Shown piece by piece: positions 15,902 through 18,212 of a stretch of 43,313 nt of DNA (position 1 is its first letter; the number at the start of each line of letters is the position of its first letter). A model generated the notes under the pieces. That model saw only the letters and a list, made by a program, of their open reading frames with translations, ran no database searches and had not been told where the DNA came from. The DNA is from a virus: the UHGV virus genome UHGV-0213395; one strand, 5' to 3'. The position numbers were made by a program, and so were the translations under genes.

Positions 15902-15934
15902 TAAAAAAAATCCCGGCTGGGTCAGGGCCGGGAT
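15902..15934 (-). terminator. strong rho-independent terminator downstream of endolysin
   Basis: 8-bp GC stem (ATCCCGGC/GCCGGGAT) followed on the minus strand by an 8-nt U-run. Confidence 0.75.
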
Positions 15935-15998
15935 AAAACTGGAGAGCAGAGGTATGGAACAGGAGGTGATTTAAGTATCGTCGGATTAGTCTCAGGTG

Positions 15999-16484
15999 TC
16001 AACCTTTCACCGCGCGCCCGATAGCCTCTGCCTCTTGCCACGGTTTACCGTCGAACAGCGCCAGACGACCGGCGGTACGACGACGCAGTCCAAGTAACGG
16101 TCTGCCGTTCTGGTTGATGAACAGTGTCAGCTTAGCCCGCAGCGTTGCAATATCACCAGAACGCAGTGCCTTACCCGTGCCGGTAGTAGCAGCAATCACA
16201 CCAGCACCTGCGTTGTATACCAGGTCGCACACTGCATCGAACTGTGCCTGTGTCAATGAATGGTGTGCTGCTGCGTCAACCGCAGCTACGGCCTTAGCCA
16301 TATCACGATTCAGTAACAGGAGGCCTTGTCCCGGGGTGATGGTCTTGCCTGGCGTTACGTCTGGCCCATAATGACCGTACCCAATAGTCAGGTACTTCTC
16401 ATTTGGCGTAGCACGATACGCAGTTCCGCGGAATCCCTCGAACGCGGCGGTGAATTTGATGCCATTGTTGCTAATGTTTCTCAT
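15999..16484 (-). CDS. endolysin, phage lysozyme (GH24/T4-lysozyme-like, 161 aa)
   Basis: N-terminal FEGFRGTAYRATPNEKYLTIGYGHYG lysozyme signature; adjacent to holin genes. Confidence 0.8.
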   Translation of the reverse strand: MRNISNNGIKFTAAFEGFRGTAYRATPNEKYLTIGYGHYGPDVTPGKTITPGQGLLLLNRDMAKAVAAVDAAAHHSLTQAQFDAVCDLVYNAGAGVIAATTGTGKALRSGDIATLRAKLTLFINQNGRPLLGLRRRTAGRLALFDGKPWQEAEAIGRAVKG

Positions 16485-16574
16485 AAAGCACCTTCCCGTA
16501 ATTTATGGTTCGCGAAAACTCCGGTATCGGGGTCGTGGTGTAAAACCTCGCGCAGCTTATCTGCGGTAAGTCCA

Positions 16575-16847
16575 TTATCTGAAATATTTCGAGACACGCT
16601 TATGTCCTCCGTATGACAGCCACGCCTGACGAATCTGGCGCAGCGCAACTAATGTGATTAATGTCTCAGGCAGCGTCGGAGACATGCTGCCCTGTAACAG
16701 GTGGATACATCCTGCGGCGCAGACAATAGCAGTCAGGATATAGAGCACCCGGCCAAATAGCCCGTCGTCAACGCTGGGATGATACACATTAAACAGCGAT
16801 GTGCCTCCGATTGCCAGCATACCGCAGAACCAGAATAACTCATTCAT
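16575..16847 (-). CDS. second holin / antiholin candidate (2 predicted TM segments, 90 aa)
   Basis: Start moved to internal ATG (MNELFWFCGMLAIGG...); two hydrophobic stretches; lies between holin and endolysin. Confidence 0.45.
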   Translation of the reverse strand: MNELFWFCGMLAIGGTSLFNVYHPSVDDGLFGRVLYILTAIVCAAGCIHLLQGSMSPTLPETLITLVALRQIRQAWLSYGGHKRVSKYFR

Positions 16848-17148
16848 CCGGGCCTCCTCGACGTGCGATGTATTCTCCGGCGACGATACCGGACAGACGG
16901 GAATAGATAGGCATCCAGAGAATAGCGATAATGAAGCCCAGGCCTGCGATTTCACGGTCGCCCGTGATTCCAAACCATTGAGCTGCGAGAGGTGCGCCAA
17001 ATACGGCGCAAGTGAAGCCAGTTGCAATAAAGCAGAAGCCGTCGATAGGGCCGGAAATAGCGGACTTATGTTGCCTTAGTCCGATTACCCCTCCGGCTAG
17101 TGCGGCAGCGAGAAGCCACCCCGTCACTGTTTCAGTAAATTTATCCAA
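16840..17148 (-). CDS. holin candidate (3 predicted TM segments, 102 aa)
   Basis: Three hydrophobic segments and charged C-terminus; apparent TTG start 7 nt after GGAGG; first gene of lysis cassette. Confidence 0.55.
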   Translation of the reverse strand: MDKFTETVTGWLLAAALAGGVIGLRQHKSAISGPIDGFCFIATGFTCAVFGAPLAAQWFGITGDREIAGLGFIIAILWMPIYSRLSGIVAGEYIARRGGPDE

Positions 17149-17223: not shown

Positions 17224-17517
17224 TTATTTATGACGCCAGATGTATTGTCGTCTCTGCGGTTTAGTCGGAATATCATCGTACCCCAGCGATTTCCAGTAAT
17301 TAAATAGCCGGTTCGCGATAGCTGCGCGTTCCTTTGTTTTAAACTCTCCTAGATTCACGGCCTTTCCGTTCTGGAATCCACAGGCGCGGATAGCTTTACG
17401 CCGTTCTTGTATCTCTGGGTACAGCGCGTTACGGCGGCGCTTGTGTATACGTGTCTTCGCTCTCGGTGACAGCGGCGCAAGGCCGCTTCGTTTCAGGATG
17501 TCAGTTGCTAACGACAT
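17224..17517 (-). CDS. hypothetical basic protein (97 aa)
   Basis: Start moved to ATG at 17517, 1 nt past the stop of the upstream paralog gene. Confidence 0.45.
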   Translation of the reverse strand: MSLATDILKRSGLAPLSPRAKTRIHKRRRNALYPEIQERRKAIRACGFQNGKAVNLGEFKTKERAAIANRLFNYWKSLGYDDIPTKPQRRQYIWRHK

Positions 17518-17786
17518 CACTCCACCCCTTCCACATGTGTAACTGACCCACAGTTCGCGCACTCGACGTAATCAGGGTACTGGTCTTTGTATTTCTGTAG
17601 CTCGGCGTTTACTTCTGCCAGTCTCGACACAAGCCCTTCTATTTCCTTGTCGTCGTCGGCTAGACGTTCCTGGTAATAGTCGTCCAGTTCCTTATAGCTG
17701 TCGTACTCTACATAATCGCCGTATGCGTACTCAGCCATCTCAGGCTCTGGCAGGCCCCACGCTTTTACCTCATATCTCTGTACCAT
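17517..17786 (-). CDS. small protein, tandem paralog B (89 aa)
   Basis: Starts MVQRY, ends ELQKYKDQYPDYVECANCGSVTHVEGVE; C-terminus identical to neighbour A. Confidence 0.5.
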   Translation of the reverse strand: MVQRYEVKAWGLPEPEMAEYAYGDYVEYDSYKELDDYYQERLADDDKEIEGLVSRLAEVNAELQKYKDQYPDYVECANCGSVTHVEGVE

Positions 17787-17989
17787 TACTCCACCCCCTC
17801 CACATGTGTAACCGACCCGCAGTTCGCGCACTCGACGTAATCCGGGAACTGGTCCTTGTATTTCTGTAACTCGGCTTCAACTTCCAACAGCTTTAGGTCA
17901 AGATTCTGGTAGTCCTCAAACTTAACCCACTTCCCGTGGCGGTCAATGAAATGGTTGTCGGACCCATACTTAGAATATCTCTGTACCAT
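17786..17989 (-). CDS. small protein, tandem paralog A (67 aa)
   Basis: Start moved to internal ATG (MVQRYSKYG...); ends ELQKYKDQFPDYVECANCGSVTHVEGVE. Confidence 0.45.
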   Translation of the reverse strand: MVQRYSKYGSDNHFIDRHGKWVKFEDYQNLDLKLLEVEAELQKYKDQFPDYVECANCGSVTHVEGVE

Positions 17990-17990
17990 G

Positions 17991-18212
17991 TTATTTCTCC
18001 TGTTTTCCAAGTCGCTTAGGTGAGCAGATAGCGCGTACCTCTGAATCGTTGGGCTTGTCACCCTGAAACAGAAAGTGCGCGTTCTCTGCGGCGCGTGCAG
18101 CTGACTGGCACGCCTCCATCGAGTAAAACGTTTCTGATGCCGCGAGTTGCATCTGGCCTGCGGACAGTACCCAGATAAAGAGGATGCTGGTCATTCGGTT
18201 ATCCATCCACAT
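17991..18212 (-). CDS. small protein with N-terminal hydrophobic/signal-like segment (73 aa)
   Basis: MTSILFIWVLSAGQMQLAA hydrophobic stretch near the N-terminus; overlaps neighbours. Confidence 0.4.
   Translation of the reverse strand: MWMDNRMTSILFIWVLSAGQMQLAASETFYSMEACQSAARAAENAHFLFQGDKPNDSEVRAICSPKRLGKQEK

What the first reader, a model, noticed from the sequence alone, without database searches (positions are those of the whole stretch)
16481..16597. 38-codon remnant of an HNH homing-endonuclease N-terminus between holin and endolysin
A GTG-initiated ORF after a GGAGG SD encodes MSRNISDNGLTADKLREVLHHDPDTGVFANHKLREGAL. The L-x-E-x-L-x-(Y/H)-D-P-(D/E)-T-G-V-F segment matches the characteristic N-terminal motif of phage HNH/AP2-type homing endonucleases, but the ORF terminates straight after it, overlapping the endolysin start. 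This looks like a decayed footprint of a homing endonuclease insertion.
Basis: partly seen in the sequence, partly recalled or inferred. Interest (0 to 1): 0.45.

Follow-up and report, generated by a model that had tools for sequence, protein, structure and literature searches.

The report
Deleted homing-endonuclease remnant before phage endolysin
The 38-codon ORF is the leftover of a selfish HNH homing-endonuclease gene whose catalytic middle was deleted; this is an ordinary stage in the life of such elements, but here related phages show every stage.

Summary
The window is a Kagunavirus-like E. coli siphophage, and its lysis genes lie on the minus strand. The ORF at 16597..16481 (GGAGG, 8 nt, GTG) matches the two ends of a 177-aa HNH_3 endonuclease. 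That endonuclease is intact at the same site in Escherichia phage BUCT825 and ZCEC5, in several metagenomic contigs and in Salmonella Jerseyviruses such as SETP13. The remnant keeps 83 nt of the 5' end and 39 nt of the 3' end, which overlap in a 5-nt microhomology (GTTTT). The loss is 417 nt (139 codons) and is in frame.

First correction: the ORF does not end at a decay stop. Its last 11 residues are the endonuclease's own C-terminus.

Second correction: the element is not intergenic. It sits inside the endolysin's first codons. It uses the endolysin's original ribosome-binding site, GTG and nine codons. Its 3' end supplies a new ribosome-binding site and ATG for an endolysin whose 5' end is Jerseyvirus-type (a co-conversion tract).

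About 33 relatives have the empty site. Four sequences share this exact remnant. Bas71 looks like a precise-loss scar.

This is a known kind of feature and of modest interest.

The parts
16606..16610 (-). GGAGG Shine-Dalgarno, 8 nt upstream of the GTG. In relatives with an empty site this is the endolysin's own ribosome-binding site.
   Evidence: Sequence reading. The same GGAGG-N8-GTG heads the endolysin in about 33 relatives with an empty site.
16481..16597 (-). Remnant ORF of 38 codons plus stop: an HNH homing-endonuclease pseudogene with an in-frame internal deletion.
16571..16597 (-). Codons 1-9 (V/M-SRNISDNG): the original first nine codons of the endolysin, now fused to the endonuclease reading frame. 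This is the left homology arm.
   Evidence: Identical to the start of endolysins at empty sites (VSRNISDNGLHF). Unrelated homologues of the HNH begin with Met at position 9 of this ORF.
16514..16570 (-). Codons 10-28 (LTADKLREVLHHDPDTGVF): the native N-terminal motif of the HNH_3-type endonuclease. It carries a Y21H change unique to this window.
16515..16519 (-). GTTTT microhomology at the deletion junction (GGAGTTTT on the left, GGGGTTTT on the right in the intact gene). 417 nt (139 codons) are missing here.
   Evidence: Prefix and suffix comparison with BUCT825: 83 + 39 - 117 = 5 nt shared.
16481..16513 (-). Codons 29-38 plus stop (ANHKLREGAL*): the native C-terminal end of the endonuclease.
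   Evidence: Identical to the 3' end of the BUCT825 HNH.
16489..16497 (-). GGGAAGGTG, a Shine-Dalgarno-like sequence for the present endolysin ATG, embedded in the endonuclease's 3' end.
   Evidence: Sequence reading. Its function is inferred.
15999..16484 (-). Endolysin (Phage_lysozyme). Its present ATG start overlaps the remnant's stop (ATGA).
16452..16484 (-). Replacement 5' end of the endolysin (MRNISNNGIKF). The allele is Jerseyvirus-type, that is, a co-conversion tract brought in with the endonuclease. It is also the degenerate direct repeat of 16571-16597 (right homology arm).
   Evidence: Native Jerseyvirus endolysins without the element start MSNRNISNNGIKF with nearly the same DNA. 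Window versus 590B identity is 63% in the first 30 nt and 93-100% after that.
16575..16847 (-). Class-I-like holin gene (second membrane protein of the lysis cassette). Its last 23 nt overlap the remnant ORF.
   Evidence: tblastn 86% over 90 aa to the BUCT825 protein. Annotated as holin in relatives.
16840..17148 (-). Class-II-like holin gene, the first gene of the lysis cassette.
   Evidence: annotations of relatives.

Best explanation
The ORF is an inactive remnant of a free-standing HNH_3 (HNH-AP2 type) homing-endonuclease gene that circulates in the lysis cassettes of Guernseyvirinae phages (Kagunavirus and Jerseyvirus).

The intact element sits inside the first ten codons of the endolysin gene. 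Its reading frame is fused to the endolysin's own ribosome-binding site, GTG and first nine codons. Its 3' end carries a new ribosome-binding site and an ATG. It is followed by a second, diverged copy of the endolysin's first codons, so the endolysin stays intact.

In the lineage of this window, a 417-nt in-frame deletion between two G-V-F codon triplets (microhomology GTTTT) removed the whole catalytic HNH core and the AP2-like region. It left 28 N-terminal and 10 C-terminal residues.

Shown here:
- homology of the remnant to the intact gene;
- the deletion junction;
- the polymorphism of the site among relatives;
- cross-genus near-identity of the element;
- co-conversion tracts in the flanking endolysin sequence.

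Inferred:
- The remnant cannot cut DNA.
- It is probably still translated from the strong original start and ends on the endolysin ATG. It would then act at most as a short leader ORF that delivers ribosomes to the endolysin.
- The 3' piece persists because it carries the endolysin's present start signals.
- The interrupted target site probably keeps the phage immune to cleavage by intact copies.
For: - Alignment of the window with relatives shows empty, full and remnant states at one position.
- BUCT825 has an uninterrupted 177-aa ORF starting at the same GTG, with PF13392 HNH_3 at E=2.5e-14.
- The remnant matches it at 27/28 residues in the N-terminus and is identical at the C-terminus. The DNA is 97.7% identical.
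- The junction analysis gives a 417-nt deletion with a 5-nt microhomology.
- Survey: about 33 Kagunavirus-like loci have the empty site. The remnant occurs only in the window, Bas73, Bas74 and one IMG/VR contig, always with the same junction. Full copies occur in BUCT825, ZCEC5, L057, L093, L095, L105 and in Jerseyviruses.
- The element is 97% identical in DNA and 99% in protein between Kagunavirus and Jerseyvirus. By contrast, the adjacent holin is 37% and the endolysin about 80% identical in protein.
- The flanking endolysin 5' tract is Jerseyvirus-type for about 30 nt with the type A element and about 120 nt with the type B element.
- Homologues in unrelated phages start at position 9 of this ORF, so the first codons are endolysin-derived.
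- No other HNH_3 gene is present in the window.
- Independent decay alleles exist: a 22-nt deletion flanked by AGGCT repeats (L107) and a 1-nt deletion in a type B copy (L058).
Against: - Nothing contradicts the homology or the direction of change (deletion rather than insertion).
- No experiment shows that any member of this element cleaves DNA or homes. The target site is unknown.
- Translation of the 38-codon ORF and coupling to the endolysin are not demonstrated.
- An in-frame deletion has a one-in-three chance without any selection.
- GenBank annotators of Bas73 and Bas74 called a different-frame 34-aa ORF here. This shows only that gene callers disagree.
- The 1-nt (L058) and 22-nt (L107) lesions in metagenomic contigs could be assembly errors.
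Confidence: 0.9

Rival explanations
1. The 38-codon ORF is kept by selection as a functional leader ORF. Ribosomes would load at the strong GGAGG-GTG start, terminate at UGA within AUGA, and re-initiate on the endolysin. The remnant would then be needed for correct endolysin dosage and lysis timing, rather than being neutral debris.
For: - The start-stop overlap ATGA and the retained original ribosome-binding site.
- The deletion is in frame and spares exactly the 3' end that carries the endolysin's new start signals.
- The same allele occurs in four phages with different neighbouring genes.
- The T4 literature describes an analogous principle: host-gene expression signals embedded in endonuclease genes favour their retention (PMC2988022).
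Against: - Bas71, 99-100% identical in the flanks, has lost the whole insert and uses the original GTG directly. The leader is therefore dispensable.
- The endolysin ATG has its own GGGAAGGTG ribosome-binding site.
- The region has no unusual RNA structure (z=-0.55).
- The only substitution in the window hits the family's most conserved motif residue (Y21H), as expected without constraint on the peptide.
Confidence: 0.2
2. The peptide has a new activity of its own. For example, the retained N-terminal motif could interfere with intact endonucleases of co-infecting phages, or the peptide could modulate the holins.
For: Only that the ORF is intact, is probably translated, and lies in the lysis cassette.
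Against: - It is rare: 4 of roughly 50 Kagunavirus-like loci, all from a single deletion event.
- It has no family match.
- The exact peptide is absent from the 15-billion-protein collection.
- The conserved Y is mutated in this window.
Confidence: 0.03
3. The feature is a chance ORF or an assembly artefact in an ordinary holin-endolysin spacer.
For: None found.
Against: - E=6e-18 in protein and 2e-32 in DNA to the intact gene.
- The identical junction is present in three independently sequenced sources besides the window: Bas73, Bas74 and IMG/VR 3300015188.
Confidence: 0.01

Closest known systems
HNH endonuclease of Escherichia phage BUCT825 (between XQQ52549 and XQQ52552, mis-split in the record) and of Salmonella phages SETP13 (YP_008767060), SETP7, AG11, SB3, STP03 and pink
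   Same: Same insertion site, same fused start, and same 5' and 3' ends. It is 97-100% identical to the retained 117 nt.
   Different: Those genes are intact (177-181 aa, HNH_3 domain). The window lacks the central 139 codons.
Bas73_0071 / Bas74_0070 region of the BASEL-collection phages GertrudWoker and SonjaBuckley
   Same: The identical remnant with the identical deletion junction.
   Different: They carry Y21 where the window has H21. The records annotate a different-frame 34-aa 'hypothetical protein' rather than this ORF.
[quoted passage not shown]
   Same: A phage HNH homing endonuclease inactivated by a large internal deletion, while an intact orthologue survives in a relative.
   Different: I-TevIII is intron-encoded. 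The element here is free-standing and has no intron. It is instead fused to the host gene's start.
Free-standing endonucleases that split or abut essential genes in T4-like phages (mobE in Aeh1 nrdA, mobA in gene 60, seg genes with embedded host promoters)
   Same: Insertion into a conserved essential gene, co-conversion of flanks, and host-gene expression signals embedded in the endonuclease gene (PMC2988022).
   Different: Here the host gene is not split into two functional polypeptides. Only its first nine codons are captured, and a duplicate set is supplied downstream.
The cyclical invasion-degeneration-loss model of homing endonuclease genes (Goddard and Burt 1999; own knowledge, also referred to in PMC2988022)
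   Same: Empty, invaded, degenerate and lost-with-scar alleles coexist among close relatives.
   Different: That model was derived for a yeast mitochondrial intron endonuclease. Here it applies to a lytic phage population.

Membership tests
HNH_3 (PF13392) / HNH-AP2 type phage homing endonucleases | HNH catalytic core domain (PF13392) | tested here: not met
   The 38-aa product has no Pfam hit. The region matching PF13392 in the intact BUCT825 copy (residues 62-105, E=2.5e-14) lies entirely inside the 417-nt deletion. The window therefore holds a pseudogene of the family, not a member enzyme.
HNH_3 (PF13392) / HNH-AP2 type phage homing endonucleases | Conserved N-terminal motif L-x-E-x-L-x-Y-[DN]-P-x-[TA]-G-x-F-T-W | tested here: met
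   The motif is present up to the F and aligns with EcSzw-2, JLBYU43 and BA3 homologues. In this window the Y is replaced by H.
HNH_3 (PF13392) / HNH-AP2 type phage homing endonucleases | Direct sequence homology of the retained parts to a bona fide member | tested here: met
   27/28 and 14/14 residues; 97.7% DNA identity over 117 nt.
HNH_3 (PF13392) / HNH-AP2 type phage homing endonucleases | AP2-like DNA-binding domain C-terminal to the HNH core | tested here: inconclusive
   In the intact copy AP2 (PF00847) scores 15.6 bits, E=0.02, below the gathering score of 33.3. The region is deleted in the window.
Mobile (homing) free-standing endonuclease genes | Presence/absence polymorphism at one precise site among close relatives | tested here: met
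   About 33 empty, 4 remnant and several full loci, all at the same codon 9/10 boundary.
Mobile (homing) free-standing endonuclease genes | Element much more similar between distant genomes than its flanks | tested here: met
   The element is 97% identical in DNA and 99% in protein between Kagunavirus and Jerseyvirus. The holin is 37% and the endolysin about 80% identical in protein.
Mobile (homing) free-standing endonuclease genes | Co-conversion tract of donor-type flanking sequence | tested here: met
   The first 30 nt (type A) or about 120 nt (type B) of the endolysin downstream of the element are Jerseyvirus-type in Kagunavirus genomes.
Mobile (homing) free-standing endonuclease genes | Site-specific cleavage of the element-free allele and super-Mendelian inheritance | not testable with these tools
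   This needs enzyme assays and phage crosses. I found no published assay for this element.

The most novel reading that the evidence does not exclude
The Guernseyvirinae lysis-cassette endonucleases (types A and B) may be a distinct way for an intron-less homing gene to live inside an essential gene. The element takes over the host gene's ribosome-binding site, start codon and first nine codons for itself. It hands the host gene a replacement start. The two diverged copies of those codons serve both as homing arms and as the substrate for precise excision, as the Bas71 allele suggests. On this reading the remnant in the window persists as a translationally coupled leader that also keeps the target site interrupted. 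The phage would then get immunity to the endonuclease without paying for it.
Probability: 0.3. Interest if true: 0.45.

Novelty: new member of a known kind. Interest (0 to 1): 0.3.

Why it matters
The finding gives a clean, sequence-resolved series for the life cycle of a homing endonuclease in lytic coliphages. The series runs from empty site to intact element shared across two genera. It continues through three independent decay lesions, two of them deletions at short direct repeats, and ends in an apparent precise-loss scar.

It also corrects public annotation. The intact gene is split or given a wrong start in several records, and the remnant is called in the wrong frame in Bas73 and Bas74.

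Practically, it shows that the endolysin start codon and its first codons differ between otherwise near-identical therapeutic-candidate phages. This matters for cloning endolysins and for interpreting mosaicism in the lysis module. It does not reveal a new mechanism.

Tried and rejected
- Pfam on the 38-aa peptide gave no hit because the peptide is too short.
- An RNA fold of 16465-16625 on the minus strand showed no unusual structure (z=-0.55). A promoter and terminator scan found nothing inside the remnant.
- I looked for a second HNH_3 gene in the window that could act in trans. There is none.
- An exact look-up of the remnant peptide (H and Y forms) and of the alternative-frame 34-aa ORF in the 15-billion-protein collection found nothing.
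- I scanned for the 19-mer of the element's 3' end. IMG/VR gave only the two contigs already known. The metagenome collection gave two more full copies and four chance hits, but no new kind of remnant.
- fFiEco03 and fPoEco01 had slightly higher query coverage and were suspected of carrying the Bas71-like hybrid allele. They are ordinary empty alleles.
- The 106-aa cluster member P0006 was suspected to be another truncation. In L105 and L106 it is only a mis-called start of an intact gene. In L107 there is a real 22-nt deletion.
- Literature searches for this element in Kagunavirus and Jerseyvirus found only generic mentions of homing endonucleases as accessory genes.
- The rival that the short form is ancestral was rejected. 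Family matches occur in 3137 phage records, and the full-length homologues examined (BUCT825, DUEC01, EcSzw-2, JLBYU43, BA3) all carry the central HNH domain.

Full report
**Setting.** The window is a Kagunavirus-like (Guernseyvirinae) E. coli siphophage. A 1.2-kb query over the lysis region hits 177 phage records, mostly Escherichia and Salmonella Guernseyvirinae. The first 25 kb of the window are about 90% identical to known Kagunaviruses, and none of them is a near-identical match across that stretch. The lysis genes lie on the minus strand:

- class-II-like holin, 17148..16840
- class-I-like holin, 16847..16575
- the ORF in question, 16597..16481
- endolysin, 16484..15999 (Phage_lysozyme, E=8e-27)

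**Observation.** The ORF reads VSRNISDNGLTADKLREVLHHDPDTGVFANHKLREGAL*. GGAGG lies 8 nt upstream of the GTG. The ORF overlaps the end of the holin gene by 23 nt, and its TGA overlaps the endolysin ATG as ATGA.

**What it is.** I aligned the window with relatives and found three states at one position.

- *Empty site.* Most relatives (590B, fTaEco03, SHAK7693 and about 30 IMG/VR contigs) have no insert. In them the same GGAGG-N8-GTG is the start of the endolysin itself, reading VSRNISDNGLHFTAAFEG....
- *Full element.* Escherichia phage BUCT825 has 527 extra nucleotides. These form one uninterrupted 177-aa ORF starting at that same GTG. It carries an HNH_3 domain (PF13392, E=2.5e-14) and a sub-threshold AP2 match.
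- *Remnant.* The window, Bas73, Bas74 and IMG/VR contig 3300015188_000003 carry only 110 of those nucleotides.

Comparison with BUCT825 shows that the remnant is the first 83 nt plus the last 39 nt of the gene, sharing 5 nt (GTTTT). This is a 417-nt, 139-codon, in-frame deletion between GGAGTTTT and GGGGTTTT, both of which encode G-V-F. The protein identity is 27/28 at the N-terminus (E=6e-18) and the C-terminal 14 residues are identical. The DNA identity is 97.7%. The catalytic domain lies wholly within the deletion, so the product cannot be a nuclease. No other gene of this family is in the window.

**Architecture of the intact element.** Homologues of the endonuclease in unrelated phages (EcSzw-2, JLBYU43, BA3) start with Met at position 9 of this ORF, directly before the L-T-x-x-x-L-K/R-E-x-L-x-Y-D/N-P-x-T/A-G-x-F-T-W motif. 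This confirms two things. And the first nine codons here are not endonuclease sequence.

Those nine codons are the endolysin's own, so the element is fused to the endolysin's translation start. Downstream, the element ends with GGGAAGGTGCTTTATGA. This provides a Shine-Dalgarno-like sequence and an ATG for an endolysin that now begins MRNISNNGIKF.

That 30-nt 5' end is the allele native to element-free Jerseyvirus endolysins (MSNRNISNNGIKF). From nucleotide 31 on, the window's endolysin is 93-100% identical to Kagunavirus 590B. This is a short co-conversion tract. For a second endonuclease at the same site (type B, 50% identical in protein, in S102, DUEC01, SHAK7858 and L039) the donor-type tract is about 120 nt.

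The type A element is 97% identical in DNA and 99% in protein between Kagunavirus and Jerseyvirus. The adjacent holin is only 37% and the endolysin about 80% identical in protein. Site polymorphism, cross-genus near-identity and co-conversion are the sequence signatures expected of a homing element. Cleavage itself has not been tested by anyone I could find.

**Other stages of decay and loss.**

- Bas71 is 97-100% identical to the window in 30-nt steps through the endolysin. It has no insert but carries a hybrid start, GTGTCTCGAAACATT|AGCAACAATGGCATCAAATTC. This is the original GTG side joined to the element-side codons, including the AAT that distinguishes Kagunavirus element-bearing genomes from Jerseyviruses. 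The simplest reading is precise excision by recombination between the two diverged copies of the endolysin's first codons. It was the only such allele in the survey.
- A metagenomic scaffold (L107) carries a 22-nt out-of-frame deletion flanked by AGGCT repeats.
- A type B copy (L058) carries a 1-nt deletion.
- Both of the last two could be assembly errors, but they fit the same pattern.

**How the remnant most likely behaves (inference).** It retains the strong original start, so it is probably translated. Ribosomes terminate on the endolysin ATG, so it may act as a short leader. The 3' piece cannot be lost without removing the endolysin's present start signals, unless the original start is restored as in Bas71.

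This parallels the T4 observation that host expression signals embedded in endonuclease genes protect them from deletion (PMC2988022). Because the insert still interrupts the sequence found in empty alleles, the phage is probably immune to cleavage by intact copies.

Three observations argue against a selected function for the peptide. The only difference between the window and the other three remnant copies is Y21H, at the motif's most conserved residue. There is no special RNA structure. And the allele is rare.

**Comparison with known systems.** This is a degenerate free-standing HNH homing-endonuclease gene. The closest precedents are T4's defunct, internally deleted I-TevIII versus the intact RB3 enzyme, and the free-standing mob and seg genes that abut or split essential genes (PMC2988022). 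It also fits the invasion-degeneration-loss cycle known from yeast. The capture of the host gene's start and first codons, with a duplicate supplied downstream, is a less commonly described arrangement, but it uses known principles.

**Annotation problems in public records.**

- BUCT825's gene is split into a wrong-frame 'hypothetical protein' and a 5'-shortened 'endonuclease'.
- S4lw's copy is labelled holin.
- The copy in ZCEC5 runs to the end of the linear record and has no endonuclease annotation there.
- Bas73 and Bas74 annotate a different-frame 34-aa ORF instead of the remnant.

**Verdict.** This is a known kind of feature and is of modest interest, mainly as a well-resolved example.

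Noticed in passing
window 17515-17615 and 17784-17884: A 101-nt direct repeat (89% identical, spacing 269 nt). It covers the 3' ends of two adjacent small minus-strand ORFs (17517..17831 and 17786..18061) that share the C-terminal sequence QKYKDQ(Y/F)PDYVECANCGSVTHVEGVE, so they are tandem paralogues.
   Followed up: partly
window about 15905-15940, minus strand: A hairpin, GTTTTATCCCGGCCCTGACCCAGCCGGGATTTTTTTT, follows the endolysin. It looks like an intrinsic terminator for the lysis cassette. The scan tool missed it, probably because the loop has 9 nt.
   Followed up: no
window 17224-17517, minus strand: A 97-aa ORF lies upstream of the holins and has no Pfam hit. This slot is variable among relatives. 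Bas74, Bas71, fTaEco03 and DUEC01 have this 97-aa protein. BUCT825, 590B, Bas73 and SETP13 have an HslV-family peptidase instead.
   Followed up: no
L004 (fTaEco03) 553-851: A roughly 299-nt extra segment lies upstream of the first holin gene. It is annotated as a 43-aa 'putative antiholin/holin class II protein' and is apparently a partial duplication of the holin's 5' end.
   Followed up: no
L006 (SHAK7693) 1089-1623: The endolysin is annotated as two ORFs, and the locus is 31 nt longer than other empty-site loci. tblastn shows overlapping endolysin segments, which suggests a small internal duplication and frameshift or a sequencing error. The record's taxonomy line (Autographiviridae) also disagrees with its Kagunavirus-like sequence.
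   Followed up: no
L007 (SETP13) 1416-1437 versus L001 (BUCT825): Jerseyvirus copies of the type A endonuclease lack one G (GGGAAGTGC versus GGGAAGGTGC). As a result their reading frame ends ...LREVLYEKH*, 14 nt inside the endolysin, instead of at the ATGA overlap.
   Followed up: partly
L053/L054/L056 (IMG/VR contigs), endolysin starts: A third Guernseyvirinae-like lineage has endolysins starting MP(N)RNISDNGLHF. Its DNA (AACATCAGTGATAACGG) is closest to the endolysin-derived codons fused to the Jerseyvirus copies of the endonuclease. This hints at where the original fusion arose.
   Followed up: no
window 15922-16041, minus strand: A 39-aa GTG ORF overlaps the endolysin's 3' end in another frame. 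The corresponding ORF is annotated as a hypothetical protein in Bas74, Bas71, SHAK7693 and SHAK7858. I did not examine whether it is a real gene (for example, a lysis accessory).
   Followed up: no
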